A DNA stretch of 64,000 nt from a virus (Duplodnaviria; Caudoviricetes), in the IMG/VR virus record IMGVR_UViG_3300042445_001485; one strand, written 5' to 3'. Below the pieces are notes generated by a model. The model made no database searches. It worked only from the letters and a program-made list of their open reading frames with translations, and had not been told where the DNA came from. Every line of letters starts with the position of its first letter. The first letter of the stretch is position 1. This document shows positions 16,552 through 45,444 of this stretch, in pieces. Position numbers and translations under genes: made by a program.

Positions 16552-16868
16552 TATGCAGTCCTCATCTGACCTTCAACGATTTCCAGCATGTTGGCCGGAA
16601 TCTTCCACAATGTGCCGTCACTATCTTTACGGACTGTGACATACTTGATGGCAATCTTTGTAACTGTACCGTGAGCACCCCAGGTGTGTTTGGGACTGGA
16701 CCAGCGAACTTGAACACCCACATCCAGGCTACGCTTGATCTGCTTGCGAAGATTGGTCTGTGCAAAACGAATGGCGTCGGTCATGCTACGAAGTTCTACA
16801 TCAGTCCATGTGCCAAACATGATAGATCTATTAAGTTGCTGAATGTCTAAAAGTCGTTCCATTTTCAA
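16551..16868 (-). CDS. early hypothetical protein (SH3-like C-terminus)
   Basis: Promoter cassette and Shine-Dalgarno directly upstream; GTVTKIAIKYVTV...WKIPANML. Confidence 0.75.
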   Translation of the reverse strand: MKMERLLDIQQLNRSIMFGTWTDVELRSMTDAIRFAQTNLRKQIKRSLDVGVQVRWSSPKHTWGAHGTVTKIAIKYVTVRKDSDGTLWKIPANMLEIVEGQMRTA

Positions 16869-16894
16869 GTTCCTTTTTAAGTTTCAATACAAGT

Positions 16895-16923
16895 ATTGTA
16901 TAATAGATACCATTTCTAGTCAA
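16895..16923 (-). promoter_or_regulatory. early promoter cassette
   Basis: TTGACT-N17-TACAAT, repeat family member. Confidence 0.85.
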
Positions 16924-17116
16924 CCAAACGCTGAAAAATTGTCTGTTGTAAAATAGCAACATCTTCCGACGGCACATAAAAGTCTGTGGCAGGGTCGTAA
17001 TACTCACCTGCTTTGGGGTCATAATAAAGTACTACACCGCTGGGATAGTGAAAAGGACCTTCTAGCCCGGCTCTAGGACCCCACTTGGGGTCATGTTGGA
17101 AAACAGTATTTGCCAT
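16916..17116 (-). CDS. small hypothetical protein
   Basis: GLEGPFHY...LYYDPKAGEYYDP motif. Confidence 0.7.
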   Translation of the reverse strand: MANTVFQHDPKWGPRAGLEGPFHYPSGVVLYYDPKAGEYYDPATDFYVPSEDVAILQQTIFQRLVD

Positions 17117-17117
17117 T

Positions 17118-17369
17118 TTAGTTTGCCATCAATGTGATTTGAACTTCGTGACCTTCGTGGGTGATGTTTACTCCCACTGGGCGGCCTTCCCCGCGGAAAC
17201 TACTGTGACGACGATCGTAAGCCAATTTTTGTATTGCAAGGCGCAGAGCCGCACCGTGCGTGACTGTGGCTGTTTTTGTATAGATGTCGTTGATAGTACC
17301 ATACATGCCAAAACCGTTGATAACAAAACGAATTCGGGTGCTGTTACTAAATCCTGCTACATGACGCAT
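17118..17369 (-). CDS. early hypothetical protein
   Basis: AAAAAGGAG Shine-Dalgarno before ATG 17369. Confidence 0.75.
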   Translation of the reverse strand: MRHVAGFSNSTRIRFVINGFGMYGTINDIYTKTATVTHGAALRLAIQKLAYDRRHSSFRGEGRPVGVNITHEGHEVQITLMAN

Positions 17370-17399
17370 CGCTGACTCCTTTTTAGCTTCAATACAAGT

Positions 17400-17428
17400 A
17401 TTGTATAATAGATGCCTTTTCGAGTCAA
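17400..17428 (-). promoter_or_regulatory. early promoter cassette
   Basis: TTGACT-cgaaaaggcatctatta-TACAAT. Confidence 0.88.
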
Positions 17429-17430
17429 CC

Positions 17431-17492
17431 AAAAAAAGTAGTACTTGAGTAGTACATGTTGTTTTATTACAACAGAGCAGGTATAGTACTAA
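17431..17492. repeat. AGTAGTAC/AGTACT-rich repeat
   Basis: aaaagtagtacttgagtagtac...tagtact. Confidence 0.65.
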
Positions 17493-17528
17493 ATATCTAT
17501 ATCAACCCTAACCCTGTTATTAGATTAC

Positions 17529-19037
17529 ATGGCTATTTCAACTCGTTTCCTTATTGATTTTCCTCTCACACCAAATCTTAGTATTACAGATACAGGTCAG
17601 GAAGGCATGCCGACCTACAACCATGATACCATTGATCGACGAATCAACGCTGTTGCGTCGGGCTTAACCCGTTTAAATTTTCCAGACAATAGTAGAATTA
17701 CAATTATAGATTATCTATCATATAATTTTGTTACATTCAACGTCGGCGTATACCGAGCCAGGCATACCATAGCACCGATTAATTTTAAACTTTCAGCCGA
17801 ACAGGTTGAACATTGTATTAGAGATTCGGGTTCTGTAATAGTTTTTTGCAATCAACATTTTACACATCTTGTACCACCTGGTATGAAATTTATTGTGTTT
17901 GATTCAACAGAATTCAATGATTTTTTAGGAGACGAGAATTTTATTCCCGTTCCACCTTCTACTAATTATGAAGATTTTGAAAATAGAAATGTAACAATGA
18001 TGTACACTTCGGGAACAACCGGTAATCCCAAAGGGGTAGTAAATAATTATAGAAATAGATTTTTTCAAATCAGCCGCGGAATTGACAATCCCATTGTCAA
18101 ATATAAACGATTGGTTTCGTTGGCTCCATTACCAATATATCATTTAGCAGGACTTAACAATATCGAGCAAGATATGTTTTTTAGTTATTCTGAAGAAACA
18201 CAGATTGTACTAATGCCACATTTTGATACTAAAAAATACATACAACACGTACAGGATTTTAAAATAACAAGATTGCGACTAGTCTCACCAATGATGGCTA
18301 TGGTTCTTCAAGAAACAGAATTACTAGAAAAAGCTGATTTTTCTCGCGTGGTAGGAATTGCATTAAACTCAAGTTTTGCTCCAAAGAAAATGCAAGATGA
18401 CATAAGAAAATACTTTAAAGATTTAAAATGGTTAGACAATCCCTACGGTTTAACGGAAACAGGTCCACTGTTTGGAAAAGAAAACCCCAGGAACTTGCCT
18501 AAACCGATGATGAGTGTGGGATATCCGCTGCCGGAGGTTAGTTGTCGTATTAACAAAGATAATGTACTCGAAGTTAAAGCACCAGCGTGTTTGTCTCAAT
18601 ACCATAATAGACCCGAGTTACAGACTTCGTTTACCGACGATGGATATTTTATCACAGGTGATTTATTTAGAGTTAACTATAATGGATTTTATTTTTACAT
18701 GGGTCGTGCCGATGACATGTTTAAAAGTGGTGGTGAAAAAATCTATCCATCTGAAATTGAACCAGTTATTGAACGCCACCCCGGTGTTGCGCTAAGTACG
18801 GTAGTGGGTGTAGAAGATGAAATCAAAGGGCATAAACCATATGCATTTGTAGAGCTCAAAATCGGAGCCAAAGCCACAGCCGAAGAAATTAAACAGTTTA
18901 CCATTGAAAATGTTGCAACATATCAAATTCCTCGTCGAGTATGGATTTTAGATTCATTGCCGAGAACCAACATAGGCAAGATTGATCGCAAAACATTAAA
19001 AAATCTTGCCATTGATCTTTTAAAGGAAAATACATGA
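17529..19037 (+). CDS. acyl-CoA synthetase / AMP-binding (ANL) enzyme
   Basis: YTSGTTGNPKG, YGLTETGP, TGDL, GRADDMFKSGGEKIYPSEIE, PRTNIGKIDR. Confidence 0.95.
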   Translation: MAISTRFLIDFPLTPNLSITDTGQEGMPTYNHDTIDRRINAVASGLTRLNFPDNSRITIIDYLSYNFVTFNVGVYRARHTIAPINFKLSAEQVEHCIRDSGSVIVFCNQHFTHLVPPGMKFIVFDSTEFNDFLGDENFIPVPPSTNYEDFENRNVTMMYTSGTTGNPKGVVNNYRNRFFQISRGIDNPIVKYKRLVSLAPLPIYHLAGLNNIEQDMFFSYSEETQIVLMPHFDTKKYIQHVQDFKITRLRLVSPMMAMVLQETELLEKADFSRVVGIALNSSFAPKKMQDDIRKYFKDLKWLDNPYGLTETGPLFGKENPRNLPKPMMSVGYPLPEVSCRINKDNVLEVKAPACLSQYHNRPELQTSFTDDGYFITGDLFRVNYNGFYFYMGRADDMFKSGGEKIYPSEIEPVIERHPGVALSTVVGVEDEIKGHKPYAFVELKIGAKATAEEIKQFTIENVATYQIPRRVWILDSLPRTNIGKIDRKTLKNLAIDLLKENT

Positions 19038-19804
19038 CATTTAACGCATGGGACACATTGGAAGGTAAAACTGCTGTGATAACCGGTGTTACCGGAGGAA
19101 TTGGGTTTGCTACCGCACAAAGACTTGCCAGACGCGGAGCCCGAATAATTGGTATAGTCAGAAGAAATTTAGAAGATGCACAGGCTAAATTAAACACATT
19201 ACCATGTAGTAGTAAAGAACCTCATCTAGCATTACTAGCAGATGTATCCAACAAGGTTCAACTACAAGAAGCAATTCTATCCATTGATCGTTGCGATATA
19301 TTGGTACAAAGCACTGGCAATACCAAAAGAATTCCACACGAAAAAATTCAGTTAATGACTGATACCTACTTTGATGAGATGACCAGAGATAACCTAAGAA
19401 GTTATTTTACTGTTATAAGGTCGTTTGAACCATTGCTGAGAAAAAGTCGAGAATCTGTCGTTGTCAATATTGGATCTGTTGCGGGCAATGCACACAGCGC
19501 CGGGGGCGGCAGCAATATTGCCTACTGTGCCGCCAAAGCCGGACTTGATGCATTGACTAGAAATTTATCCAAGGCATTAGCGCCAGACATTCGTGTGGTT
19601 GGTGTTAGTCCCGGTATAGTAGATACTACGTTTGTTACCAAGGCCATCGACAACTACCCTAATTTAGAGTCAATTGCCAATAGCACTCCACTTAAACGAA
19701 TTGCCACAGTAGAAGATATAGCGGCAAATGTAGAAGCTTTAACTACCTTAATGAGATATTCCACAGGCATTGTAATCTGTGTAGACGGAGGAAGAACCCT
19801 ATGA
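19034..19804 (+). CDS. short-chain dehydrogenase/reductase (SDR)
   Basis: TGVTGGIG Rossmann motif, YCAAK catalytic YxxxK, VSPG. Confidence 0.95.
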   Translation: MTFNAWDTLEGKTAVITGVTGGIGFATAQRLARRGARIIGIVRRNLEDAQAKLNTLPCSSKEPHLALLADVSNKVQLQEAILSIDRCDILVQSTGNTKRIPHEKIQLMTDTYFDEMTRDNLRSYFTVIRSFEPLLRKSRESVVVNIGSVAGNAHSAGGGSNIAYCAAKAGLDALTRNLSKALAPDIRVVGVSPGIVDTTFVTKAIDNYPNLESIANSTPLKRIATVEDIAANVEALTTLMRYSTGIVICVDGGRTL

Positions 19805-20694
19805 TCATCAGACCAGAAAAAACTATTATGACTTGCGCCATTACTGGCGCCATCACAGATCCCAATTCAACACCGTATTTGCCAATCAGTCCAGAAGAGA
19901 TAGCAGATAGTGCATTAGGTGCCGCAGAAGCAGGAGCCTCAATAGTGCATTTACATGTTAGAGATCCTGCAACTAAAATGGCCAGCATGAGCACCGAACT
20001 GTATATAAAAGTAGTTGAGATGATCAAAAAAGACAATCCAGATCTTATTATCAATTTGACCACAGGTCCTGGAGCACTATTTGTTCCCGGTGCTAGACTA
20101 TTGCAAGTTGGTGAAAAAAGTAGTGTCATGAGAAGTGCTAGACAGAGAACCGAACATATAACTGAAATTAGACCAGATATCTGTAGTTTTGATTTCAATA
20201 CCATGCATCATGGCGGACCAAGTATTCGTTTAAATTTTATGCCTGTGCTAAGAGAAATGGCAGTTATTATTAAAGAAGCAGGAACCAAACCTGAACTTGA
20301 ATGCTTTGACTCCGGAGATGTTAGAATTGCCATGCAGTTGCAAAAAGAAGGTTTAATTGAAGAACACCCGCTGTGGCAGTTTGCAATGGGTGTCAAATAT
20401 GGATGGGATAATACTCCCGAGGCATTAAACTATGCCCGATGTGCGATACCACACGGTTCGTTATGGTCGGCGTTTGGTATCAGTCGGGAAGAAATGCCAA
20501 TGGTGGCCAATACTTGGTTGTTAGGCGGGCATGTTAGGGTTGGTCTCGAAGACAACATTTACCTAAGTAAAAATGTGTTGGCAAAAACCAATGCTGAGTT
20601 AGTTACCAAAGGTCGTCGTGTTGTTGAGGATTTGGGTGGTCAGTTGGCCAACTATGCAGAAGCTAGGGCAATATTAAATCTCCCTAGCAAGTAA
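19801..20694 (+). CDS. beta-keto acid cleavage enzyme (BKACE / Kce / DUF849)
   Basis: TCAITGA, P-SPEEIA, AGASIVHLHVRD, GGHVRVGLEDN. Confidence 0.95.
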   Translation: MIIRPEKTIMTCAITGAITDPNSTPYLPISPEEIADSALGAAEAGASIVHLHVRDPATKMASMSTELYIKVVEMIKKDNPDLIINLTTGPGALFVPGARLLQVGEKSSVMRSARQRTEHITEIRPDICSFDFNTMHHGGPSIRLNFMPVLREMAVIIKEAGTKPELECFDSGDVRIAMQLQKEGLIEEHPLWQFAMGVKYGWDNTPEALNYARCAIPHGSLWSAFGISREEMPMVANTWLLGGHVRVGLEDNIYLSKNVLAKTNAELVTKGRRVVEDLGGQLANYAEARAILNLPSK

Positions 20695-20696
20695 TA

Positions 20697-21239
20697 TTAG
20701 GGTTGAGTATAACCTTCTACATGTTGATCAATTACGCTGTCGTCTGGTAGTTCCATCCCGGGAGCAATGACCAATACTTCTTCTTCACTGAGAACACAGG
20801 CACGTTCTGCCCCAAATGCCAAGCACCAGTCGATCCATTCTTGTGCATGTTCTGCCTTGAGAACTCTCAAACTTTTCCACGATTCGGGGACTGTTCGTAA
20901 ATGCGGATAATCAGCTATAACTACATTTCTTACAGTATCGTGCGTATAATAGGTATTACAGGCCCAATGGCGGTATTTCACATTCCAATCGATTTTTCTG
21001 CCTGCATGTGGCGAAGGTATATCATAGGGTATGTAGGTGTCTCCACCGGGTGTGTCCGGCGAAGATCTAGTCCCTAATGTTCCCTTGACCATTTTTCCGG
21101 CATCAACCAGTTCGGCAACTTTAGCAACCAGTGCATCATTGTTGGCTTTTGTGGGCGCTTCCAGGGTGCCAGGCAGGGGAATCGAAAAAGTTTCTGGCGG
21201 AAATGAGTTGGTAACGATAACATATTTTGCTGATGGCAT
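20697..21239 (-). CDS. hypothetical protein
   Basis: 180-aa ORF with TAAATA and AGGAG upstream. Confidence 0.7.
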   Translation of the reverse strand: MPSAKYVIVTNSFPPETFSIPLPGTLEAPTKANNDALVAKVAELVDAGKMVKGTLGTRSSPDTPGGDTYIPYDIPSPHAGRKIDWNVKYRHWACNTYYTHDTVRNVVIADYPHLRTVPESWKSLRVLKAEHAQEWIDWCLAFGAERACVLSEEEVLVIAPGMELPDDSVIDQHVEGYTQP

Positions 21240-21269
21240 TTTAAAAATCTCCTATTACTAGTATTTACC

Positions 21270-22421
21270 TTAGTGAAACATTAAGAATTGATTTTGCACA
21301 TCAAGTCTGGTTGCACCTAGATCACCGTGTCCTGCTGGAAATACCACAACATTCCATTGCGGCTTGGGTCCTTCGGGTATACGATTCATTTGATCGTATG
21401 TGATAATTGATGCAGGGTCAATACGGTATTTTGCCGACAACTGCTGTTTAAATTCGTCCCATGCTTCGGCACTACGGACCTGTGTACGACCCTGTTCGTC
21501 CTTGACATACTTGCCCTTGGCATCGGTGACAAACAAGTTACGGAACATGTCCTTGGGAATGGTGGGTGCGCCTTTTAGGTTTTTTCCGGCATTGCGATGG
21601 AATTCAACTTTTTTGACTTCACGACTCTTGGCGCCACCGTCACTGAAGTTGGGTAGTGTATTGGCCGGTGTGTTGGGGTCAGTTACTGGATCACCCATTT
21701 TACTATAGAAGTAAAAACGCACATCAGGATTGTTGAGTTGTACCTTTTTACTCAGGTCCCAGTATTGTTTACTGAAGAAGTCTCCAGCATCATGAATACG
21801 CACCAACAGTTTGATACCGTTTTTGTCTGCCAGGGCTTTTGTTCGTTTGATTTCTGTGTCAAACATCTGCATGTATTCGTCAGGGTGGTTGACCAAGAAG
21901 TTCAAGGCTTGTGCGGCACTCATTGATGCGGCCGGGAACATGACATAGCCACCTTTGCGGGCATAGCAGAACAGTTGGCATTCGCCGGCTCCGGGACAAG
22001 TTGTGATTTCCACAAACTCTCCAGTCTCTTCATCCACAACAATACCGCTCAGTGCTGGCAAGGTCAAGTCATATGTGATAGCGCCTTCTTTTTTGCTCTT
22101 GCTCATTTTGGCATTTGATCCCAAAATAGCTCTTGGCGGTGTGGTAATTTGACGCTTTAGATCTTCCAGGTCCCATTCTTCGGTGCCATCATCTTTGGTA
22201 ATGGCCTTGACATTGCTGCCGTGAATGATGGGTTTAAAGCGATCTTGTTTTGTTTTAGTACCAGTCTTGATACGAGTCAAGTAGGCCTGCATGTCTTGTC
22301 GGGACCATGACTTTTGTGGAGCATCTAGTTTGATTGCTTCTTCTACATCGCCCTGCTCAATATGAAGCGGCTTGACTGTAAAGCCACCTAATTTTGTTTC
22401 AATAAGTTGTGAATATCGCAT
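21270..22421 (-). CDS. GP88-like (Fe-S / radical-SAM-related) phage protein
   Basis: SNAKM, TCPGAGECQLFCYA, VRIHDAGDFF; start MRYSQLIE, 5 nt after TAAATA. Confidence 0.7.
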   Translation of the reverse strand: MRYSQLIETKLGGFTVKPLHIEQGDVEEAIKLDAPQKSWSRQDMQAYLTRIKTGTKTKQDRFKPIIHGSNVKAITKDDGTEEWDLEDLKRQITTPPRAILGSNAKMSKSKKEGAITYDLTLPALSGIVVDEETGEFVEITTCPGAGECQLFCYARKGGYVMFPAASMSAAQALNFLVNHPDEYMQMFDTEIKRTKALADKNGIKLLVRIHDAGDFFSKQYWDLSKKVQLNNPDVRFYFYSKMGDPVTDPNTPANTLPNFSDGGAKSREVKKVEFHRNAGKNLKGAPTIPKDMFRNLFVTDAKGKYVKDEQGRTQVRSAEAWDEFKQQLSAKYRIDPASIITYDQMNRIPEGPKPQWNVVVFPAGHGDLGATRLDVQNQFLMFH

Positions 22422-22429
22422 AGTTGTAT

Positions 22430-23611
22430 TTATAGGAATGTGTCTGCCAATTGCTGACACTTGTCCCTTATATCCTTGTTGTTGGTCACGGTGACTGAAA
22501 AGTCTTGCTCGCTGTGGTCATGTTGTGTGGGATCTGCATATCCAGCATACACTTTGTGTACATTGGTGTTGTTGATCAAATCGGTACAACTGCCGCCTGC
22601 TCGCTCATCGGCCATGTCAGTTTCATATTCGTTGCAAGGACTCAGGGTTGTAATGATAATCGAACCCTTGGGTATTTCACCGTACTGCTTGTTATATTTG
22701 TTGATAGCAACTCGTTCAGCATGTATTCGTGTGTCACCGTCACCGGGTAAGTTTATACCTGTGACAATGTTATCATCTGGATCCACCACAGCGGCCGCAA
22801 CCTTGCCATAACGGTCTGGGTCTTTGGCCTGGCCATCTACGATCATCTGTATCAACTGGGTCAGTATGCGATCCAATTTGGGGGTGTTGTGTACACGATA
22901 ATCGTCAACGCTTTCCATGCTGAACTCGCGGTCTTGTGTGGTGTGGTATGCTTTACCAAGTCGATCTAAATAGCCCAAATTGCGTACAACTTTAAATGCC
23001 AGGTTCTCTACACTGAACTCACCACCCGCATCCAGGCCTGCTCGGCGCATCTTACGCAGTTTATCTGTGATGCGCTTGATGTCACGACTGTCATCTGCCG
23101 TTGCCAGGGCATGTCGTATTTGTACCAATAAGTCTTGTACCTTGTGATTTACAGCACCTGTGCTGATCTTGGGCTGTAGGTACTTGGGTGTGTGTACCCA
23201 ACGATTGTTTGTGATGCTGTATACGCCTTGACTCACAGGTGGTTGTTTGACATCTTCTACATATAACTCTACATCATGTCCACGAATACGAATATTGTGT
23301 GCATCATTCCAAATCTTTTTCTTGGCTTGGTAAAGTGCTTCTGCCAAGTCATCACATTGCAAGTTGTTGTAGTCAGTGACCACATGCAGATCAAAGTCAC
23401 TAAACCGGGTCCAGTTGTAGTTGCTCATTGATCCAGTCAACACAATGTCTATGACTTCAAAGTCGGGTATTTCAAGATAGTCAACAAAGGTGCCAACAAT
23501 GGCCAGCAGTCGCTCTCTAACTTCGGGACGCATTTGATCGCCGGTCCAAGTGGCTGGATTCAGCCGGTTGTGATATGCAATATTGCCTGCGACGAAGTCT
23601 TGTGCTCTCAT
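22430..23611 (-). CDS. nucleotidyltransferase fused to a zinc-dependent deaminase domain
   Basis: N-terminal LTGS...SDFDLH (Pol-beta NTase G-S / DxD); C-terminal HAE...TLSPC...C (CDA-like). Confidence 0.8.
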   Translation of the reverse strand: MRAQDFVAGNIAYHNRLNPATWTGDQMRPEVRERLLAIVGTFVDYLEIPDFEVIDIVLTGSMSNYNWTRFSDFDLHVVTDYNNLQCDDLAEALYQAKKKIWNDAHNIRIRGHDVELYVEDVKQPPVSQGVYSITNNRWVHTPKYLQPKISTGAVNHKVQDLLVQIRHALATADDSRDIKRITDKLRKMRRAGLDAGGEFSVENLAFKVVRNLGYLDRLGKAYHTTQDREFSMESVDDYRVHNTPKLDRILTQLIQMIVDGQAKDPDRYGKVAAAVVDPDDNIVTGINLPGDGDTRIHAERVAINKYNKQYGEIPKGSIIITTLSPCNEYETDMADERAGGSCTDLINNTNVHKVYAGYADPTQHDHSEQDFSVTVTNNKDIRDKCQQLADTFL

Positions 23612-23618
23612 TGTATAT

Positions 23619-24314
23619 TTACGCTAGATGCGTCATTAGCGCATCCATTTGTTCTATACCACCTCGGGACAACTGAAAGCCTTGTTGCCGGGCTTTGTCC
23701 ATGCGTTGATCGTATGTGGGGTGTGTGCTGTTGGGTTGGCTGGCTAATTTTTTCATATATTCCAACTCGCCTTTCTTGGCATGCATGAATTTAAACACAC
23801 CAGCTTTGTTGTAGCCCAGGGCTTTACATAACCTAACAGCAAAATCATCAGCATCCATTTCATCTTTACGGGATTGTTCTGGACTTGGCTCATCATCTAC
23901 ATGTCCTAGCGCAATGTGTCCTAGTTCATGTGCTATGGCAAAAGTCAATACATCTGCTGGAGCGTCCCAGAATACAGTTAAGTCTATGCTGATGTATCGG
24001 TTCTCAGGATCACTTTGTATGTATTGTCTATTAGACTTTACACCGATGGTAGCTCCCTGCAACGGTGCGGCCCATGAGGCACCTGCAGTTCTAATCAACT
24101 TGGCAAGTACAGCGTTACATTTTTCCTGTAAGGCCTGCATTCGTGGAGCCCAAATCTTAACCAAAGCCTGTGGGTCTTGTTTGGTTATGTCTTGGTATTC
24201 ACCGGCTTGTGCCGTGGAAGCCATTGACCCCAGGGCGGCTGCTCCTGCCGCACCGGCAAGGCCCTTGAGTATATCACGGCGACCTATTTCTGTGATAAAC
24301 TCACGAGCTCTCAT
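23619..24314 (-). CDS. M48-family zinc metallopeptidase with twin-arginine signal
   Basis: HELGH, E-x-D-A-D, S-T-H-P...R; GRRDILKG plus hydrophobic segment plus AQA. Confidence 0.85.
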   Translation of the reverse strand: MRAREFITEIGRRDILKGLAGAAGAAALGSMASTAQAGEYQDITKQDPQALVKIWAPRMQALQEKCNAVLAKLIRTAGASWAAPLQGATIGVKSNRQYIQSDPENRYISIDLTVFWDAPADVLTFAIAHELGHIALGHVDDEPSPEQSRKDEMDADDFAVRLCKALGYNKAGVFKFMHAKKGELEYMKKLASQPNSTHPTYDQRMDKARQQGFQLSRGGIEQMDALMTHLA

Positions 24315-25159: not shown

Positions 25160-25774
25160 TTAACTATTTATGGCAGGATCTATGAAGCTTTGAGTGTAGT
25201 CGTAATTGACCATTGTGCTGTAGCTCTGTGTGCGTCGGCGCTCACTGTTGTCAGCATTGGGAATAACACGCAATATTTTTGCACCATTGCGTATATGGAA
25301 CTTGGCCACTGGATCTTTTTGTGCAGATAAAAACTCCATGATGGCATTCATCGTGGGTGGCTCGGCAAAATGTGCGCTCAAATTTGGAATAGGGCTCATT
25401 GTGACAAACTGTTGAATTTCAGGCCGGTTGGCATGAATCCAAGTGGCAGCTTCGCGAATTAGTCGAGCACCAGTGTTTTGTACACCGCTGGGTTTATCAG
25501 TTCTAAACACGCTGTAAAAGACGGCATGGTCTGCTTGAAGGCACACAGCACTAGCAACATCTAGTATCTCATCAATATTGTCGGTTAGACCTTGGATGTA
25601 GGCCACACACAACACCGCTGTGGGTACATTGTTCTCTATCCAGAAAAATATATTACGGTCGAATTCGCATCTTCGGTCAAGGCTACGACTCTCAGTTAAA
25701 CTGTGAACTGGGTCCTGATGAACATATTGTAAGTAATCTGGATGGAACTCTGCTGACCGTAAGTGAACAAGCAT
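25160..25774 (-). CDS. malonyl-CoA decarboxylase catalytic-domain-like protein
   Basis: AVFYSV, FVTMSPIP, DPVAKFHIRNGA, MVNYDY. Confidence 0.85.
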   Translation of the reverse strand: MLVHLRSAEFHPDYLQYVHQDPVHSLTESRSLDRRCEFDRNIFFWIENNVPTAVLCVAYIQGLTDNIDEILDVASAVCLQADHAVFYSVFRTDKPSGVQNTGARLIREAATWIHANRPEIQQFVTMSPIPNLSAHFAEPPTMNAIMEFLSAQKDPVAKFHIRNGAKILRVIPNADNSERRRTQSYSTMVNYDYTQSFIDPAINS

Positions 25775-31669: not shown

Positions 31670-31945
31670 ATGGAAATTTTAATTGTTGCTCTAGTAGCAG
31701 TGGGCTTTTGGTTAGTTTGGCAAGCAAACAAATCTAAAAGGTTTGATATTAACAAAGACGGCAAAGTAGACATGGCAGATGCTCAAGCCGCAGTGGTCAA
31801 AGTTGAGGAAGCTGTTGTTGCCGAAGTTAAAGAAGCTGTTGAAGAAGTCAAAGTTGTTGCCAAGAAAACTGCTACTCGGGCCAAAGCCGCTGGTGACGCA
31901 GTAAAAAAGGCCACTACACGGACTAAAAAAACCACCGCTGAGTAA
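31670..31945 (+). CDS. membrane-anchored protein with EF-hand-like loop
   Basis: N-terminal TM, DINKDGKVDMAD, Lys/Ala-rich tail. Confidence 0.7.
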   Translation: MEILIVALVAVGFWLVWQANKSKRFDINKDGKVDMADAQAAVVKVEEAVVAEVKEAVEEVKVVAKKTATRAKAAGDAVKKATTRTKKTTAE

Positions 31946-33042
31946 TGTCAAGACTTGATTTTGGGGTGTTGGTAAACAGTCCAACCTGTAAATTCCATCT
32001 CGATCATTTTCAGAACAACAACATCCAAGAGTGGGCCATCTATCATGATTCGCCCACTTATTTTCTGCAATTTCAACATCGTGCTCGTGCGGCATTATTG
32101 CATTGGCCATTTCCCGATAATCCCGAATTTGATACGCTAGTTGATCAGTTATACGATCATTGCGAAATTATTGTAATCACAATAACTGAATTACATAATA
32201 GTAGTATCAATTTTATGCGTCGATTTGACCGACCTAAGATTGTGTTTTATATTGCTGGTTTTATACAAGAACCGTTAAAGTCAGCTCAAGTAAAAAACTA
32301 CATGGATTGGTTCCACACCAGCAGGCATTTTTATCGAAACTACCTGCCTGAGATCCTACAGCGAATCAAACCTGGTGCTATTGAAAATTATTTTGACATA
32401 CTGTTGGGTCGTAAAAAACCACACAGGGATTATATCAATCAATATGTTACTAAAAATCTTCGTACTGAACAATATTTCCTAACCTATTTCAACGAGCACG
32501 ACATTGACTTTGCTGAAAATGAATTGCTATGGGCTTGGGAACAGCCCGGCCTTCGTTTCATTGATCGTCCAAAATGGACAGTAGACATGGTTGAATACTT
32601 TGGTTTGAAGATGAGTATTAGCCAAGTAATTCCCATCGACATATACAATCGCACTGCTTATTCAGTTGTAGCAGAGACTTGCTACTCAAACGAGTTTGTA
32701 TTCTTTACTGAAAAAACTGCCAAGCCAATAATTGCCAGGCGTCTATTTGTTATGTTTGCCGGACAAGGGTATCTGGCACGCCTACAACAACTAGGCTTTC
32801 GAACCTTTGACAGTATAATTGATGAAAGTTATGATCAAGAATCAGATCCTGTTCGTAGATGGGGCATGGCCTGTGATCAACTACTATTGTTAACACAAAA
32901 ACCTCAGGACCAAGTATTAACACAGATAAAGCCCATTGTGGATCATAATTTTAAAATTATGATGAACAGCAATTGGTATACTGATTTTAGTTCTGATTTA
33001 GAAAACCTGCTTGGTACACTTGCTGAGCAAACTCGGCGCTAG
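31945..33042 (+). CDS. glycosyltransferase-like protein (GT10-like motif, tentative)
   Basis: VAET...FTEKTAKP...GFRTFDSIIDESYD; paralogue of 40436-41572. Confidence 0.6.
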   Translation: MSRLDFGVLVNSPTCKFHLDHFQNNNIQEWAIYHDSPTYFLQFQHRARAALLHWPFPDNPEFDTLVDQLYDHCEIIVITITELHNSSINFMRRFDRPKIVFYIAGFIQEPLKSAQVKNYMDWFHTSRHFYRNYLPEILQRIKPGAIENYFDILLGRKKPHRDYINQYVTKNLRTEQYFLTYFNEHDIDFAENELLWAWEQPGLRFIDRPKWTVDMVEYFGLKMSISQVIPIDIYNRTAYSVVAETCYSNEFVFFTEKTAKPIIARRLFVMFAGQGYLARLQQLGFRTFDSIIDESYDQESDPVRRWGMACDQLLLLTQKPQDQVLTQIKPIVDHNFKIMMNSNWYTDFSSDLENLLGTLAEQTRR

Positions 33043-34030
33043 CCAGGTTCTTGCCCTTGGCCTCGCACATGATATCAAATTTCTGGCTAAATTGTGCGGC
33101 CCACTGATTGGTAGCTTGATTCCAAAAGAAATCACTGTGTGCCCGTAGTTTTTGTTTCTTGCGACCTTCTGCCAACAAGGCCTGATAGTCGGGACGCACA
33201 GTGGCATCATGTCCTACTAGGTAGTCTTCACGACTACAGGAATAATGCATAGTAGGACGTATGCCGCGCCAACTGTTAAGAATCCGTGAAATTCGGGCAT
33301 CGCCGGGATCCAAGTAATCCCCTTCTCGTATCCAATAATGATGGATGTCAAGAACAGTAGGTATAATATCGCTAAGACTGAGACAAGTATCAAGACCATG
33401 TGAATTCTCCTCGTTTTCTACGGTGATGCAGTTACGGGCCTCGGGACTGAGACGACCATGCACAGCTCGCATGCCTTCAGCACCGCGTTTGCCTGAAATA
33501 TGTATGTTGATTTTAAAATCCTGAAAAGACTTACCAAATCCCATCCACCGTGCCAGGTCTGCATGGTATTCAAATTCCAGTATGCTACGCTCCACAATCG
33601 CATCCGATTCAGAAGCCAACACACAAAATTGTCCAGGATGGAAACTAAGGCGCACACCCAGGCGTCGTGCCGCTTCACCCACAGGGGCAAATATCTTTGC
33701 ACAATGGTCTTGGATTTCTGTTCGTTGCCACCAGTCAATCCAGTCTTTCTCAGTATAACCCTGTAACATTTCGCTACCTAGTCGAACCATGCGTAAATGT
33801 GGTGCAAGACTACCCACACGCTCAACCAGTCTGGTAGCGGCAGCCGCATTGTGGTTCATGATGTCCCACTGGCGTTGGTCAGCCTCGCCCTTGTGCTCTC
33901 TGAGCCAACGCATGGTAGTTGACCTACCGTTTAGGTCACGGTCCACAGCATTGACTTTCATGCCCCCACATTCACTGGGGTCATTGAGCCATTTGCAAGC
34001 AAAACCTATTCGGGGTGTAACTGTAGTCAT
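32987..34030 (-). CDS. uvdE: UV-damage endonuclease UvdE (UVDE)
   Basis: RIGFACK, RLSFHPGQF, NIHISG, ENEE, LDIHH, HYS, HSD, IMCEAKGK. Confidence 0.93.
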   Translation of the reverse strand: MTTVTPRIGFACKWLNDPSECGGMKVNAVDRDLNGRSTTMRWLREHKGEADQRQWDIMNHNAAAATRLVERVGSLAPHLRMVRLGSEMLQGYTEKDWIDWWQRTEIQDHCAKIFAPVGEAARRLGVRLSFHPGQFCVLASESDAIVERSILEFEYHADLARWMGFGKSFQDFKINIHISGKRGAEGMRAVHGRLSPEARNCITVENEENSHGLDTCLSLSDIIPTVLDIHHYWIREGDYLDPGDARISRILNSWRGIRPTMHYSCSREDYLVGHDATVRPDYQALLAEGRKKQKLRAHSDFFWNQATNQWAAQFSQKFDIMCEAKGKNLASAEFAQQVYQAGFLNQN

Positions 34031-39223: not shown

Positions 39224-40436
39224 AATGTATTACCTTAATATCGGGGTTAGTCGTCTTGTATGTTCGCCACGGATCAATGATTGTGCTACCTGATCCTATT
39301 TCACAGTACAGCGGTTGTTCAACAATATTGCCACTATAGCCATAAGTGATCTGCTGATTATGTGCCAACAAGAATACACCAATTGCAAATTGTAATTGTG
39401 TATCTTCGGCCAACGGATCAATGTAGTAAGGTTTGATACCCATTTCTTCTAGATAGTATCCCACTAGCAAACTGTAACTTCCTTCAGTATAGGCCACATT
39501 AGGTTTATATGCTTTGCCGTGAATGTAAACCGATTTATCAAGTCCCTGCTCAACAGCAACATCACGAATAAACCTTGCCATATTTTTGGCCTGTTGTTCT
39601 CTTGCTTTCATTATAGCATCAAATAAGTCATAACCCAAATCTAATTCTTCCGCAAGATAGCGCAAGGCAATATTATCCCTGGGATGACAAGGACCTGCAT
39701 CGCCCAAACCTGCAGTCATGTATTTTGGTCCCATAATACGCATTTTGCTATTGGCCAGGGCATTGGTAACTACATCTACATCGATGTTGCCTTGCTTCAT
39801 TGCTACATCTTGTATCATGTTGGCTAGTCCAAGTTTGGCACTGATAAATGTATTATAAAATACCTTGATACACTCAGCCTCATCCCAGGTGCCAACTTCG
39901 TATCGTGGATCATTTTGCATTATGGTTTTGTAAAATGTAATTAATTCTCGAGCATCGCCTGTTTCACTGCCGTCTTCTGTGCCAATAATAACCATTTCTG
40001 GATTGACCATATCCCACTCCACTGAGCCCATGGCAATTAAGTACGGATTGTAAATGAAACGAGCATTGGTAATGTTGGGTCTTAGTAGTCTACGGGTAGT
40101 ACCGGGCAGTACTGTACTAATTAACACAACCAATTGATCGGGTTGTGCCCAAGCATCAACATCTTTTAACACCTGTGTGACTTTTGTGTAGTCAAAATCT
40201 TTGTTCTTCAAGTGTGTGATAGGTTGTTCGCCTCCGTAAACAGGATCGTGCGGAGTTTGTACAGCAATAAAGATTATGTCTTGATTGACCACTGCACCAC
40301 GCAGGCTATCGGATATTCTAATCTTGTCACTTTTTCGTGGATAAATATCATACCCAGTAACTTCATGCTGAGTAGCCATTACTTCGGCGCACGACATTCC
40401 CAATTTGCCTATTCCAATAAATCCTATTTTCATCAA
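39195..40436 (-). CDS. ugd: UDP-glucose/GDP-mannose 6-dehydrogenase
   Basis: GIGKLG, IAVQTP, ISTVLPGT, KVFYN, GDAGPCHPRD. Confidence 0.93.
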   Translation of the reverse strand: MMKIGFIGIGKLGMSCAEVMATQHEVTGYDIYPRKSDKIRISDSLRGAVVNQDIIFIAVQTPHDPVYGGEQPITHLKNKDFDYTKVTQVLKDVDAWAQPDQLVVLISTVLPGTTRRLLRPNITNARFIYNPYLIAMGSVEWDMVNPEMVIIGTEDGSETGDARELITFYKTIMQNDPRYEVGTWDEAECIKVFYNTFISAKLGLANMIQDVAMKQGNIDVDVVTNALANSKMRIMGPKYMTAGLGDAGPCHPRDNIALRYLAEELDLGYDLFDAIMKAREQQAKNMARFIRDVAVEQGLDKSVYIHGKAYKPNVAYTEGSYSLLVGYYLEEMGIKPYYIDPLAEDTQLQFAIGVFLLAHNQQITYGYSGNIVEQPLYCEIGSGSTIIDPWRTYKTTNPDIKVIHYGNTRNNQV

Positions 40437-44472: not shown

Positions 44473-45429
44473 TTAGGCTTGCTTACGGATAGCATCAACC
44501 AATCCTGGTGTGAACATGTCACGGAACTGATCATAAACTACAGCAGTTTGTGCTTTGGCCCAAGCCAATTCTTCTGTGCTCAAAGGTTGAATCTTTGCAC
44601 CTTCGGCAGTTAGCTTTTGCTTGGCAATTTCGCCATCACGGATTGTTTCTAAACGCTCTTCACGCCCGGCTTCAATTGCGGCCTGCTTGATAACAGCCTT
44701 GACCGCAGGGCTCAGACTTTCCCAGAAACGGTCACCAATGATCATAGTGGTCAAGAACAAACTGTGTTCTGTGTCTAACACAGTCTTGGTAACAGCATTT
44801 TGACCCAATGGGTAAATACGTGGATAATTAGTTTCTGCACCTTCACAGTTACCAGCTGTCATGTTGTCTACGATTTCTTCTAGTTCGCAAACAAATGGGT
44901 TCAATCCCAATGCACGGTAAGTTGCTTGTGCGACTGGGTTACGGTTGCTACGCTGTGTAGTTCCAGCCAACTCTGCCAGTGTACTGACTTCTTTGTTGGA
45001 AATCATTTGACGGAAACCACCCGAGTATGTGTAGCTCAAGCCACGAACATTGCTCTTTTCTTTCAATTTGGCCAACAAGCCTTCGCCAACTTCGCCTTCT
45101 AACACGCGAGTTGCGTGGTCATGACCTGCAAAGATGTATGGCAAATCAAATGCCAACATGTCTTGCTCATAGTGTTCAGCCAACCATGTGGTGTACATTT
45201 GGCTCATTTCAATCTTGCCTTGATCCATTAGATCTAACAAGTCGTGTTTTGTAACCAAGACGCCATCGTTATACTTGTGACTGTATTCAGTCAAAGTCAT
45301 GATTTCAACTTGAACTTTTTCGCTGTCATTGCTGATAGCGGCATTCAAGTGGTCTTGGAAGTCTTTGGCGGCACGAACAAATAGATTTAGTGGCTCGTGT
45401 GCGATTACCCAGCGGATTTTTGTAGTCAT
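44473..45429 (-). CDS. dctP: TRAP transporter DctP-family solute-binding protein, lacking a signal peptide
   Basis: FDLPYIF, GGFRQ, R-x-x-x-N-P, G-x-E-x-N-Y, HSLF; GGAG Shine-Dalgarno before ATG 45429. Confidence 0.85.
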   Translation of the reverse strand: MTTKIRWVIAHEPLNLFVRAAKDFQDHLNAAISNDSEKVQVEIMTLTEYSHKYNDGVLVTKHDLLDLMDQGKIEMSQMYTTWLAEHYEQDMLAFDLPYIFAGHDHATRVLEGEVGEGLLAKLKEKSNVRGLSYTYSGGFRQMISNKEVSTLAELAGTTQRSNRNPVAQATYRALGLNPFVCELEEIVDNMTAGNCEGAETNYPRIYPLGQNAVTKTVLDTEHSLFLTTMIIGDRFWESLSPAVKAVIKQAAIEAGREERLETIRDGEIAKQKLTAEGAKIQPLSTEELAWAKAQTAVVYDQFRDMFTPGLVDAIRKQA

Positions 45430-45444
45430 ATATGGTTTCTCCAT

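What the first reader, a model, noticed from the sequence alone, without database searches (positions are those of the whole stretch)
17490..20694. Three-gene acyl-CoA ligase / SDR / BKACE metabolic operon inserted against the genome's grain
The genes are intact, overlap ATGA-style and lie on the plus strand among minus-strand genes. They look AT-richer by eye and are preceded by TAAATA (17490). BKACE enzymes condense a beta-keto acid with acetyl-CoA to give acetoacetate plus an acyl-CoA. An SDR upstream could oxidise a beta-hydroxy acid to the beta-keto substrate, and the ligase could activate a carboxylate. A complete, apparently late-expressed catabolic or biosynthetic mini-pathway of this type is not a standard phage auxiliary module to my knowledge.
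Basis: partly seen in the sequence, partly recalled or inferred. Interest (0 to 1): 0.7.

Follow-up and report, generated by a model that had tools for sequence, protein, structure and literature searches.

The report
Phage-borne beta-keto-acid cleavage enzyme operon
A giant lake-water phage carries a working-looking three-enzyme set (CoA ligase, dehydrogenase, beta-keto-acid cleavage enzyme) that many uncultured phages keep under strong selection but no cultured phage or searchable paper has, so it is probably an undescribed way for phages to re-route host acyl-CoA metabolism.

Summary
Three intact, ATGA-coupled plus-strand genes sit among minus-strand phage genes: an ANL acyl-CoA ligase (17529-19037), a classical SDR (19034-19804) and a BKACE (19801-20694).

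It is neither a host chimera nor a recent insertion.
- Independent lake metagenome contigs bridge both junctions.
- Codon usage matches the phage.
- dN/dS is 0.02-0.13 for all three genes.
- The same module recurs in at least eight different uncultured-phage backgrounds, with variants: ligase-SDR fused, ligase+BKACE next to a terminase, and SDR+BKACE next to a signal-less DctP-like protein.

All phage and metagenome BKACEs form one strongly supported clade. It sits near, with weak support, a Burkholderiales clade that includes the dioxygenase-SDR-BKACE-MDR aromatic cassette. The ligase clade has no close cellular relative.

The phage clade keeps the zinc and catalytic residues. It has lost an arginine that most bacterial relatives share with BsfD, which suggests an uncharged substrate.

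No curated BKACE subfamily cut-off is met, so the substrate, the reaction direction and the expression remain unknown. No BKACE was found in 50,697 GenBank phage records or in searchable papers on phages.

First readers of this scan also noted BKACE+DctP islands in another genome, and this same stretch in an overlapping window.

The parts
17457..17474 (.). Conserved stem-loop (TGTTG, 8-nt loop, CAACA) in the divergent intergenic region. It lies between the minus-strand early-type promoter (TTGACT-17-TACAAT, 17428-17400) and the trio's TAAATA box.
   Evidence: The sequence is. The stem is invariant and the loop variable in L120, L122, L123, L013 and L015. There is no covariation, so function is inferred only.
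17488..17505 (+). Promoter-like box ACTAAATATCTATATCAA containing TAAATA (17490-17495), 33 nt before the ligase ATG. No Shine-Dalgarno sequence precedes that ATG.
   Evidence: The box is conserved in L120, L122 and L123 (one T/C difference in L120), and CTAAAT is kept in L013 and L015. TAAATA is enriched before ORF starts window-wide (28 of 60 against a 14% background).
17529..19037 (+). ANL-superfamily acyl-CoA ligase, 502 aa. It belongs to a clade found so far only in uncultured phage and metagenome contigs.
   Evidence: Pfam PF00501 and PF13193 match. Core motifs are intact: YTSGTTGNPKG, YGLTETG, TGD, GRADD and the C-terminal GK. No NCBIfam cut-off is met; the best is PRK06187 at 271 against 476. 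The best PDB match is MenE at 143 bits. Identity to ligases of three Burkholderiales genomes is 30% or less. The metagenome-only series runs from 91% down to about 30% identity. dN/dS is 0.06-0.09.
19034..19804 (+). Classical short-chain dehydrogenase/reductase, 256 aa, translationally coupled to the ligase (ATGA).
   Evidence: Pfam matches are. The TGVTGGIG motif and the N120/S148/Y164/K168 tetrad are present and conserved. GIVRR after beta-2 is an NADP(H)-type signature (inference from SDR classification). It is 43-48% identical to the SDR that sits directly upstream of BKACE in Burkholderiales. dN/dS is 0.04-0.13.
19801..20694 (+). [quoted passage not shown]
   Evidence: PF05853 scores 295 bits. 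The closest solved structure is BsfD 9ZSC (262 bits), then 3C6C. H50, H52 and E250 align with the BsfD Zn ligands H48, H50 and E247. E167, R246 and D251 are invariant, F169 aligns with BsfD F166, and L93 aligns with BsfD R91. The phage clade has SH-aLRT support of 100. dN/dS is 0.02-0.08.
44473..45444 (-). Signal-less DctP-family (TRAP-type) carboxylate-binding protein. It is a candidate accessory of the module, 24 kb away here but directly beside BKACE in three other phage contigs.
   Evidence: PF03480 scores 148.8 bits. It is 41-47% identical to the DctP genes convergent with BKACE in L008, L111 and L112, and 4 kb from it in L011. The N-termini start at the mature domain with no signal peptide. 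The functional link is inferred from neighbourhood only.

Best explanation
The trio is a long-resident, selected auxiliary metabolic module of uncultured freshwater phages. It acts on small carboxylates and acyl-CoA pools of the infected cell.

Most likely mechanism:
1. The SDR interconverts a beta-hydroxy and a beta-keto carboxylate with an uncharged side chain.
2. The Zn-dependent BKACE condenses the beta-keto acid with acetyl-CoA and splits it into a two-carbon-shorter acyl-CoA plus acetoacetate.
3. The ligase spends ATP to thioesterify a free acid of the pathway. The best guess is the product acetoacetate, which inhibited the one BKACE tested and which the host thiolase would then return as two acetyl-CoA.

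Shown here: gene integrity, intact catalytic motifs, phage residence, conservation as a unit, purifying selection, and a phage-clade change at a likely specificity position.

Inferred: the chemistry of each step, the substrate, the direction of flux, and any role of the DctP-like protein.

Origin: the SDR-BKACE pair is homologous to the pair inside a Burkholderiales ring-cleavage cassette (intradiol dioxygenase, SDR, BKACE, Zn-ADH-type reductase). This fits capture from a betaproteobacterial host lineage. In phages the pair is joined to a ligase that has no close cellular counterpart.
For: - Domains and motifs are intact.
- The same ligase-SDR-BKACE order occurs in 10 of 12 IMG/VR contigs and in metagenome contigs with several unrelated flanks. 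These include a 306,732-bp contig that is syntenic with the window.
- One module sits directly after a T4-type large terminase (L009).
- The phage BKACEs are monophyletic (SH-aLRT 100, 50 rows). They lie near the Burkholderiales SDR-linked clade, though the joining forks have support below 95.
- The best cellular identity is 55% or less, mostly to Comamonadaceae, Limnohabitans, Variovorax and Cupriavidus.
- The bacterial cassette dioxygenase-SDR-BKACE-MDR was confirmed by Pfam at three loci of two genomes, Limnohabitans and Paraburkholderia. ORF clustering suggests it in about half of the 23 SDR-linked Burkholderiales loci.
- Pairwise identities of the three genes co-vary across 11 loci (Spearman 0.57-0.68).
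- dN/dS is 0.02-0.13, and codon usage lies within the phage's own range.
- Independent DNA contigs bridge both junctions.
- The BsfD-Arg91 position is Arg in 65 of 77 bacterial relatives but never in 50 phage-clade sequences. The N-terminal TGAIT segment resembles BKACE15, which takes uncharged beta-keto acids (PMC11961710).
- Precedents exist for dehydrogenase, then BKACE, then acetoacetate activation: the phloroglucinol pathway (PMC10470551) and deoxyribonate oxidation (bioRxiv 10.1101/205583).
- Acetoacetate inhibits BKACE15 with an IC50 of 1.45 mM, so a removal step is useful (PMC11961710).
Against: - No curated BKACE equivalog cut-off is met: Kce 235 against 382, dioxohexanoate 191 against 430, 3-oxoadipate 163 against 350. 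The substrate is therefore unknown.
- Phe169 replaces the Tyr implicated in canonical BKACE catalysis. The closest solved relative, BsfD, does non-canonical chemistry.
- The SDR carries an NADP(H)-type GIVRR motif, which usually goes with reduction rather than oxidation.
- The ligase is of the FadD/MenE/4CL type, not the acetoacetyl-CoA synthetase type.
- In-frame ligase-SDR fusions in L005-L007 suggest that those two enzymes act on consecutive steps, which the proposed order does not give.
- The SDR is absent from L009, and the ligase is not adjacent in L111 and L112.
Confidence: 0.55

Rival explanations
1. Biosynthetic or non-canonical reading. The BKACE works like BsfD (C-acetylation of a beta-keto acid followed by decarboxylation to a beta-diketone) or runs in the condensing direction. 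In that direction the ligase would make an acyl-CoA, BKACE would extend it with acetoacetate to a beta-keto acid, and the NADPH-type SDR would reduce it. The trio would then build a small molecule such as an inhibitor, a signal or a modification precursor, rather than burn a substrate.
For: The closest solved structure is BsfD (9ZSC, 262 bits, near-gapless end-to-end alignment). BsfD makes 2,4-dioxopentylphosphonate instead of acetoacetate. Phe169 matches BsfD Phe166, and the beta-3 loop insertion is shared. The SDR motif is NADP(H)-type. The BKACE reaction has been run in reverse in vitro. The ligase comes first in the operon.
Against: BsfD Arg91 is absent (L93) and there is no phosphonate or other biosynthetic context nearby. 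Phe at this position is shared by all 77 bacterial relatives, including those in catabolic ring-cleavage cassettes, so it is not specific to BsfD chemistry. The paper itself could not show that Phe causes the altered outcome.
Confidence: 0.2
2. CoA-ester route. The ligase activates a beta-hydroxy acid to its CoA ester, and the FabG-like SDR oxidises (or, PhaB-like, reduces) the 3-hydroxy or 3-ketoacyl-CoA, as proposed for deoxyribonate in Klebsiella michiganensis. BKACE works in parallel on the free keto acid or feeds acetoacetate into this ligase-SDR pair.
For: In-frame ligase-SDR fusions occur in three contigs from three metagenomes (L005-L007). The gene order is ligase, then SDR. There is a precedent of an LcfB-like CoA synthetase plus a FabG-like dehydrogenase acting on a 3-hydroxyacyl-CoA. 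The SDR's NCBIfam matches include FabG and acetoacetyl-CoA reductase models, all below cut-off.
Against: In bacteria the homologous SDR is paired with BKACE without any ligase, which argues for a free-acid substrate. BKACE is the only invariant member of the phage module.
Confidence: 0.15
3. Sugar-acid or deoxyribonate salvage. SDR and BKACE oxidise and cleave 2-deoxyribonate or a similar polar hydroxy acid released during nucleic-acid turnover. This would link the trio to its nucleotide-metabolism neighbours (non-specific endonuclease, dCMP deaminase, and in relatives a gene with Pfam NT5C, 5'-nucleotidase).
For: An adjacent SDR-BKACE pair is genetically required for deoxyribonate use in Pseudomonas simiae and Paraburkholderia. 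The trio's neighbours include Endonuclease_NS and a dCMP-deaminase fusion, plus NT5C in relatives. The phage BKACE lacks the anion-binding Arg, which fits a polar uncharged tail.
Against: Orthology to the deoxyribonate enzymes could not be tested because no reference sequences were reachable. The closest bacterial SDR-BKACE pairs examined sit in a ring-cleavage cassette, not a sugar-acid one. A replicating phage needs deoxyribose units rather than burning them (inference).
Confidence: 0.06
4. Assembly chimera with host DNA, or a recently acquired passenger without function.
For: The strand is opposite to both flanks, and the ligase has lower GC.
Against: A 4,540-bp contig from another lake sample covers 17331-21400 with no differences, and further contigs bridge each junction. 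Nineteen DNA runs hold 73-100% of the sampled words. Synteny is conserved in independent assemblies. GC and codon usage are phage-like, whereas the nearest cellular homologues are only 55% identical or less and lie in Burkholderiales, whose genomes are generally GC-rich (general knowledge; not measured here). dN/dS is far below 1.
Confidence: 0.02

Closest known systems
BsfD of the Burkholderia flavophos cluster (PDB 9ZSC/9ZSH/9ZSN/9ZSV; bioRxiv 10.64898/2026.01.15.699783)
   Same: It is the best solved-structure match (262 bits, near-gapless over 288 residues). The two share the Zn ligands His-His-Glu, Phe at the helper-Tyr position, the roughly 20-residue beta-3 loop insertion, and CoA-contacting Arg and Lys equivalents (R229, K257).
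   Different: Arg91, which sits near the phosphonate in BsfD, is Leu93 here and is never Arg in the phage clade. There is no PEP-mutase or phosphonate context. The partners here are an SDR and a CoA ligase. Whether the phage enzyme does BsfD-type or canonical chemistry is unknown.
Burkholderiales cassette intradiol dioxygenase - SDR - BKACE - Zn-ADH-type reductase (Limnohabitans and Paraburkholderia confirmed by Pfam; Variovorax and Cupriavidus by clustering; uncharacterised, includes the 3C6C-like 'RaKce' type)
   Same: The SDR sits directly upstream of BKACE, with 43-48% (SDR) and 50-55% (BKACE) identity to the phage pair. These are among the nearest cellular relatives on the tree. TctC-type binding proteins lie nearby, as in the phage contigs L012, L016 and L017.
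   Different: The phages lack the dioxygenase and the MDR reductase and add a ligase. The bacterial enzymes keep Arg at the BsfD-91 position, as expected for a substrate with a second acidic group such as 3-oxoadipate (inference). The phage enzymes do not.
Phloroglucinol lower pathway of Clostridium scatologenes (TfD dehydrogenase + triacetate acetoacetate-lyase, then CoA-transferase and thiolase; PMC10470551)
   Same: The biochemically shown logic matches the proposal here: a 3-hydroxy acid is oxidised to a beta-keto acid, BKACE cleaves it with acetyl-CoA, and acetoacetate is then activated to acetoacetyl-CoA.
   Different: The phage BKACE scores 191 bits against the 430-bit cut-off of the NCBIfam model for that enzyme. 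Activation here would be by an ATP-dependent ligase, not a CoA-transferase. The host is not an anaerobe's fermentation pathway.
Oxidative deoxyribonate pathway (SDR PS417_07245 + BKACE PS417_07250; Price et al., bioRxiv 10.1101/205583)
   Same: It has an adjacent SDR then BKACE and an uncharged polar substrate, and acetoacetate must be re-activated. A variant pathway uses an LcfB-like CoA synthetase plus a FabG-like SDR.
   Different: Orthology was not testable here. The phage module has its own ligase and no lactonase, transporter or glycerate kinase.
Carnitine catabolism BKACE group G5 and the lysine-fermentation enzyme Kce (G2) of Bastard et al. 2014
   Same: Same fold and same Zn-dependent Claisen/retro-Claisen family.
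   Different: The Kce model cut-off is not met (235 against 382). The position aligned with Kce Glu14, which binds the amino group, is Ile18. The dehydrogenase here is a classical SDR. The carnitine dehydrogenase family was not checked here.

Membership tests
BKACE / DUF849 (PF05853) | Profile match above the curated cut-off over the whole TIM-barrel domain | tested here: met
   295.3 bits against 24.8, residues 7-294 on model positions 1-274.
BKACE / DUF849 (PF05853) | Zn2+ ligands His-x-His and Glu, plus the catalytic Glu of the PELE strand | tested here: met
   H50, H52 and E250 align with BsfD H48, H50 and E247. H50, H52, E165, E167, R246, E250 and D251 are invariant in 50 phage-clade and 77 bacterial sequences.
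BKACE / DUF849 (PF05853) | Tyr next to the catalytic Glu (Tyr145 in Cloacimonas Kce, Tyr173 in PdKce), implicated in canonical catalysis | tested here: not met
   F169 is Phe in 49 of 50 phage-clade and 77 of 77 bacterial relatives, as in BsfD F166 and RaKce.
BKACE / DUF849 (PF05853) | Catalysis: beta-keto acid + acetyl-CoA gives acetoacetate + acyl-CoA | not testable with these tools
   This needs an enzyme assay.
[quoted passage not shown] | Equivalog score cut-off, and Glu14 that binds the 5-amino group | tested here: not met
   235.3 bits against 382. The position after TGA is Ile18, hydrophobic or small across the clade. The role of Glu14 is taken from PMC10470551. The residue mapping to Kce rests on the motif and is not a printed alignment.
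3-oxoadipate:acetyl-CoA acetyltransferase (NF053568) | Equivalog score cut-off | tested here: not met
   162.9 bits against 350. Eight relatives tested (four phage or metagenome, four bacterial) score 161-179.
3,5-dioxohexanoate (triacetate) acetoacetate-lyase (NF053538) | Equivalog score cut-off | tested here: not met
   191.2 bits against 430.
BsfD-type non-canonical BKACE | Phe at the helper-Tyr position and the beta-3 loop insertion | tested here: met
   F169 matches F166, and the alignment through TTGPG..F.PG is ungapped.
BsfD-type non-canonical BKACE | Arg91 near the phosphonate, and a phosphonate gene cluster context | tested here: not met
   The position is L93, and no Arg occurs there in 50 phage-clade sequences. 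The neighbours are gp88, a dCMP deaminase fusion, an endonuclease and an MCD-like gene.
Bastard et al. ASMC groups G1-G7 | The active-site residue profile of each group | not testable with these tools
   The paper is not held. The open papers give only the substrate classes per group.
ANL superfamily acyl-CoA ligase | Core motifs A3 (P-loop), A5, A7, A8 and the A10 Lys, plus both Pfam domains | tested here: met
   Read by eye in the translation; Pfam. No NCBIfam equivalog or subfamily cut-off is met.
Classical SDR | The TGxxxGxG cofactor motif and the Asn-Ser-Tyr-Lys tetrad | tested here: met
   TGVTGGIG, N120, S148, Y164 and K168 are invariant or nearly invariant in 12 phage and bacterial sequences.
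Phage auxiliary metabolic gene | Lies inside a bona fide phage genome and recurs in related and unrelated phages | tested here: met
   The flanks are gp88, a dCMP-deaminase fusion, RNR, DNA ligase and a virion protein. There are 12 IMG/VR contigs, a terminase-adjacent copy, and contigs that bridge both junctions.
Phage auxiliary metabolic gene | Expressed during infection and alters host metabolism | tested here: inconclusive
   One RNA run holds contigs of the neighbouring gene (20886-21221) but none of the trio. Contigs cannot show absence.
Oxidative deoxyribonate pathway pair | Orthology to PS417_07245 and PS417_07250 | not testable with these tools
   The reference sequences could not be fetched. 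Only the paper's text was read.

The most novel reading that the evidence does not exclude
Uncultured freshwater phages have evolved their own BKACE system: a phage-only CoA-ligase clade, a BKACE re-tuned from an acidic to an uncharged substrate, and a cytoplasmic, signal-less DctP-type binding protein that hands the acid to the enzymes. The system either makes a beta-diketone or hydroxy-acid product by BsfD-like chemistry, or drains a host store such as polyhydroxyalkanoate-derived 3-hydroxy acids into acetyl-CoA during infection. Either would be a new kind of virus-encoded metabolic take-over.
Probability: 0.15. Interest if true: 0.8.

Novelty: new variant of a known kind. Interest (0 to 1): 0.58.

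Why it matters
Phage auxiliary metabolic genes are known mostly for photosynthesis, nucleotide, sulfur and phosphate metabolism. A conserved, selected acyl-CoA and beta-keto-acid module would add carbon-chain (ketone-body-like) metabolism to what lake phages reprogram in abundant freshwater Betaproteobacteria.

The phage clade is also a natural experiment in BKACE specificity, because it has lost the arginine that most bacterial relatives keep. It sits next to the only BKACE relative known to do non-canonical chemistry. Biochemical work could therefore reveal a new substrate or reaction for an enzyme family already used in synthetic pathway design.

Everything needed for a direct test is in hand: three small soluble-type enzymes and one binding protein.

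Tried and rejected
- **DNA search in GenBank phages.** Megablast of the trio and of 9 kb of flank found nothing. The phage has no sequenced close relative, so annotation transfer was impossible.
- **Protein search in GenBank phages.** tblastn of BKACE found no match. The ligase and the DctP found only hits of 30% identity or less, several on short or unannotated records.
- **Own genome.** No whole genome is held for this window.
- **RNA evidence.** The single RNA run (X20) gave 151-bp contigs on the neighbour gene only. Its short hits at 17377-17431 and 18003-18037 are a repeated promoter element and the universal P-loop motif from other organisms. Nothing can be concluded about expression of the trio.
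- **Sigma-70 promoter and terminator scan of 16800-21400.** It found fewer sites than the shuffles and none usable before the ligase.
- **Canonical T4 late box.** TATAAATA is not enriched as a word (4 found against 3.7 expected). The shorter TAAATA is the informative motif.
- **BKACE subgroup assignment.** Bastard et al. 2014 is not held. The ASMC and NetSyn preprints and PMC4922564 give groups but no residue tables usable here.
- **Presence or absence of the trio in relatives.** The search through the dCMP-deaminase neighbour returned 19 contigs that share only that protein's N-terminal domain and no synteny, so it was uninformative.
- **PDB search with the DctP-like protein.** It gave only distant TRAP binding proteins (88 bits or less), so there is no ligand clue.
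- **The fourth plus-strand gene after BKACE in L013 and L125.** It has no Pfam family. By Atlas features it belongs to a virus-only family with at most a weak glycosyltransferase-10 resemblance. It is judged unrelated to the pathway.
- **My own ORF caller on high-GC bacterial loci.** It produced spurious long frames. The cassette was therefore confirmed with Pfam on hand-picked ORFs.

Full report
**What is there**

The window carries three intact plus-strand ORFs: 17529-19037 (502 aa), 19034-19804 (256 aa) and 19801-20694 (297 aa). Both junctions read ATGA and are preceded by Shine-Dalgarno-like purine runs.

Pfam assigns:
- AMP-binding plus AMP-binding_C to the first ORF;
- adh_short and adh_short_C2 to the second;
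- BKACE to the third, at 295 bits against a cut-off of 24.8.

The ligase keeps all ANL core motifs. The SDR keeps TGxxxGxG and the Asn-Ser-Tyr-Lys tetrad. The BKACE keeps the zinc ligands and the catalytic acid residues.

The flanks on both sides are minus-strand phage genes: small early-type genes upstream, and downstream a 180-aa ORF, gp88, a dCMP-deaminase fusion, a TAT-signal M48 peptidase, a non-specific endonuclease and a malonyl-CoA-decarboxylase-like protein. Elsewhere in the window are RNR, an ATP-dependent DNA ligase, a radical SAM enzyme and a virion structural protein. Earlier notes of this scan describe the genome as a lake-water T4-related giant phage.

The BKACE stop codon and the stop codon of the converging gene are 2 nt apart.

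**Not a chimera and not a fresh insertion**

- Nineteen lake-water DNA runs hold 73-100% of the sampled words of 17000-21400.
- A 4,540-bp contig from a sample not flagged as the source covers 17331-21400 without a single difference. Contigs from another run bridge each junction separately.
- Independent assemblies keep the same layout: trio, then gp88, dCMP deaminase, endonuclease and the MCD-like gene. These are L013 (a 306,732-bp contig), L120, L122 and L125; L123 ends within the gene after the 179-aa ORF.
- GC is 36.2% (ligase), 41.9% (SDR) and 42.2% (BKACE) against 42.4% for the window. Codon-usage distances (0.110-0.133) fall inside the spread of the other phage genes (0.107 +/- 0.023).
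- The nearest cellular homologues are only 55% identical or less.
- Nei-Gojobori dN/dS between relatives is 0.06-0.09 for the ligase, 0.04-0.13 for the SDR and 0.02-0.08 for the BKACE. dS is saturated, which makes these values overestimates.

**Distribution**

A tblastn search with the BKACE finds nothing in 50,697 GenBank phage records. IMG/VR, however, holds 12 contigs with a relative (54-65% identity).
- Ten carry ligase, SDR and BKACE in that order.
- One is cut inside the SDR.
- One (L009) has ligase and BKACE directly after a T4-type large terminase and no SDR.

Metagenome proteins form a dense series from 96% down to 58% identity, none with a cellular name. Contexts sampled across that series are all phage-like.

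Variants seen:
- an in-frame ligase-SDR fusion (a 721-aa ORF in L005, with the same coordinates pattern in L006 and L007, from three metagenomes);
- SDR+BKACE without an adjacent ligase but converging on a DctP gene (L111, L112);
- trios that run the same way as at least some adjacent genes (L113, L124).

The opposite-strand position is therefore a feature of some lineages, not of the module.

**Origin**

In a maximum-likelihood tree of 137 BKACEs, all viral-contig and metagenome sequences form one clade (SH-aLRT 100, stem length 0.31). That clade lies next to, but outside, a Burkholderiales clade; the joining forks have support below 95.

In 23 Burkholderiales loci fetched (Variovorax, Limnohabitans, Rubrivivax, Cupriavidus, Paraburkholderia), an SDR 38-47% identical to the phage SDR sits directly upstream of the BKACE. 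There is never a ligase.

Pfam on three loci of two genomes (Limnohabitans and Paraburkholderia) shows a conserved cassette: intradiol (catechol/hydroxyquinol-type) dioxygenase, SDR, BKACE and a Zn-ADH-type reductase. In Limnohabitans the cassette is flanked by TctC binding proteins and preceded by an amidohydrolase_2 gene. ORF clustering suggests the same cassette in about half of the 23 loci. That context points to a ring-cleavage route ending in a dicarboxylic beta-keto acid such as 3-oxoadipate. This is inference, because none of these proteins reaches the NCBIfam 3-oxoadipate cut-off.

The ligase is different. The best matches in three Burkholderiales genomes are 30% identical or less. 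The homologue list is a graded, metagenome-only series down to about 30% identity, and then drops to generic ANL enzymes. The ligase contexts sampled are again phage trios.

Pairwise identities of the three genes co-vary across 11 loci (Spearman 0.57-0.68; the pairs are not independent). This fits inheritance as a unit with some shuffling.

**Active-site reading**

The closest solved structure is BsfD of the Burkholderia flavophos cluster (9ZSC, 262 bits), followed by the uncharacterised RaKce 3C6C.

From the printed alignment and the BsfD paper:
- H50, H52 and E250 correspond to the Zn ligands H48, H50 and E247.
- R229 and K257 correspond to the CoA-contacting R226 and K254.
- F169 corresponds to F166, the position where canonical BKACEs have the Tyr thought to assist catalysis.
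- The beta-3 loop insertion is shared.
- BsfD Arg91, which lies near the substrate's phosphonate, is Leu93 here.

Across my alignment this position is Arg in 65 of 77 bacterial relatives and never Arg in the 50 phage-clade sequences, where it is Thr, Tyr, Leu, Val or Phe. W202 and A17 are also clade-specific.

The N-terminal substrate-facing segment (TGAIT) is nearly the same as in BKACE15 of Paracoccus (TGAIH). That enzyme's confirmed substrates are uncharged beta-keto acids. The residue after TGA is where Kce has the amino-binding Glu14 (its role is taken from PMC10470551); here it is Ile. I map it by motif, not by a printed alignment.

Together this argues for an uncharged side chain. It argues against the lysine-fermentation, carnitine and 3-oxoadipate specificities. 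The curated models agree: none reaches its cut-off.

**Mechanism**

Two bacterial systems show the logic of dehydrogenase, then BKACE, then re-activation of acetoacetate:
- the phloroglucinol pathway, fully reconstituted in vitro;
- oxidative deoxyribonate catabolism, supported by genetics.

BKACE15 is inhibited by acetoacetate at about 1.5 mM, so a removal step next to the enzyme is useful. I therefore favour this order: the SDR makes the beta-keto acid, BKACE trades it with acetyl-CoA for an acyl-CoA plus acetoacetate, and the ligase thioesterifies a free acid of the pathway, most simply acetoacetate.

This order is inference. Three facts pull the other way:
- The SDR has basic residues after beta-2 (GIVRR), the NADP(H) signature that usually goes with reduction.
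- The ligase and SDR are fused in one lineage, as if they act consecutively.
- The ligase is of the FadD/MenE/4CL type, not the acetoacetyl-CoA-synthetase type.

A CoA-ester route and a condensing or BsfD-like biosynthetic route therefore remain live rivals.

**Regulation**

The 96-nt divergent intergenic region holds three elements:
- on the minus strand, an early-type TTGACT-17-TACAAT promoter with a Shine-Dalgarno sequence, serving the upstream gene;
- a conserved stem-loop (17457-17474);
- the box ACTAAATATCTATATCAA (17488-17505), 33 nt before the ligase ATG, which itself has no Shine-Dalgarno sequence.

The early-type promoter element is repeated in the genome and in related phages, and read depth spikes there.

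Of the 60 copies in the window, 28 lie 3-45 nt upstream of an ATG that opens 60 or more codons, against a background of 14%. Many are only 4-7 nt from the ATG. But the same motif precedes the minus-strand neighbours (the 180-aa ORF, the ORF carrying Pfam GP88, the dCMP deaminase, the endonuclease and the MCD-like gene). The trio therefore appears to share its neighbours' timing class. Calling that class 'late' rests only on analogy with the T4 late box TATAAATA.

No terminator separates the converging downstream gene from the BKACE, so antisense read-through across the trio is possible. This was not tested.

**Possible accessory**

A DctP-family protein lies directly beside the BKACE in L008, L111 and L112, and 4 kb away in L011. 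The window has a 41-47% identical copy at 44473-45444. The three I translated start at the first strand of the mature domain and have no signal peptide. They cannot serve a periplasmic TRAP importer.

In contrast, the TctC-type protein 4 kb from the trio in L016 has a clear signal peptide.

A cytoplasmic acid-binding partner is an open and interesting possibility.

**Novelty**

No BKACE and no member of the ligase or DctP clades was found in GenBank phages. No searchable paper holds both 'DUF849' and 'phage'; the one paper that mentions both the Kce enzyme and auxiliary metabolic genes is a cattle gut-microbiome study that I did not open.

The enzyme families and the pathway logic are known from bacteria, and auxiliary metabolic genes in phages are a known kind. 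I therefore rate this a new variant of a known kind, of moderate to good interest, with substrate, direction and expression still open.

Noticed in passing
window 44473-45444 (-); L008:10894-11838, L111:9539-10525: The phage DctP-family binding proteins lack a signal peptide and begin at the mature domain, so they should be cytoplasmic. In three phage contigs they sit directly beside BKACE.
   Followed up: partly
window 25160-25774 (-): A 204-aa protein matches the malonyl-CoA decarboxylase C-terminal domain (99 bits). It is conserved at the same place in L013, L120 and L122. This is a second acyl-CoA-related gene 4.5 kb from the trio, and it could supply acetyl-CoA.
   Followed up: partly
window 31945-33042 (+) and 40436-41572 (+); L013:10891-11979: Two further plus-strand ORFs of 150 aa or more in the window are paralogues (37% identity over 115 residues) of a virus-only family with an E..TEK motif and a weak GT10-like resemblance. 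A member follows BKACE as a fourth plus-strand gene in L013, L014, L015 and L125.
   Followed up: partly
window 17375-17433: A roughly 55-nt early promoter element on the minus strand (TTGACT-17-TACAAT plus a Shine-Dalgarno sequence) recurs at 16895-16923. It draws many partial contig matches and a depth spike (149 against about 10) in lake metagenomes, so it looks like a multi-copy, cross-phage conserved cassette junction.
   Followed up: partly
window-wide, e.g. 43026, 43765, 23616, 14819, 13208, 10921, 9921 (-): TAAATA followed after only 4-7 nt by the ATG of a real ORF occurs about a dozen times. This implies near-leaderless transcripts from a late-type box.
   Followed up: partly
window 45911-48007 (-): A 698-aa protein has an autotransporter beta-domain (57.7 bits), which is unusual cargo for a phage.
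   Followed up: no
window 22430-23611 (-): The dCMP-deaminase domain occupies only residues 260-357. The N-terminal 232 residues form a separate module shared with 19 other IMG/VR contigs that have no other synteny.
   Followed up: partly
window 23619-24314 (-), 41565-42356 (-), 32987-34030 (-): Three more unusual phage genes: a TAT-signal M48 peptidase, an S11 D-Ala-D-Ala carboxypeptidase and a UvdE UV-endonuclease.
   Followed up: no
L016:2943-3920, L017:200-1171, L012: A TctC-type tricarboxylate-transporter binding protein with a clear signal peptide is encoded about 4 kb from the trio in another phage lineage.
   Followed up: partly
L027, L051, L126 (Limnohabitans, Paraburkholderia): A conserved, apparently uncharacterised bacterial cassette: intradiol dioxygenase, SDR, BKACE and a Zn-ADH-type reductase. 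Paraburkholderia sp. GAS448 has two copies.
   Followed up: partly
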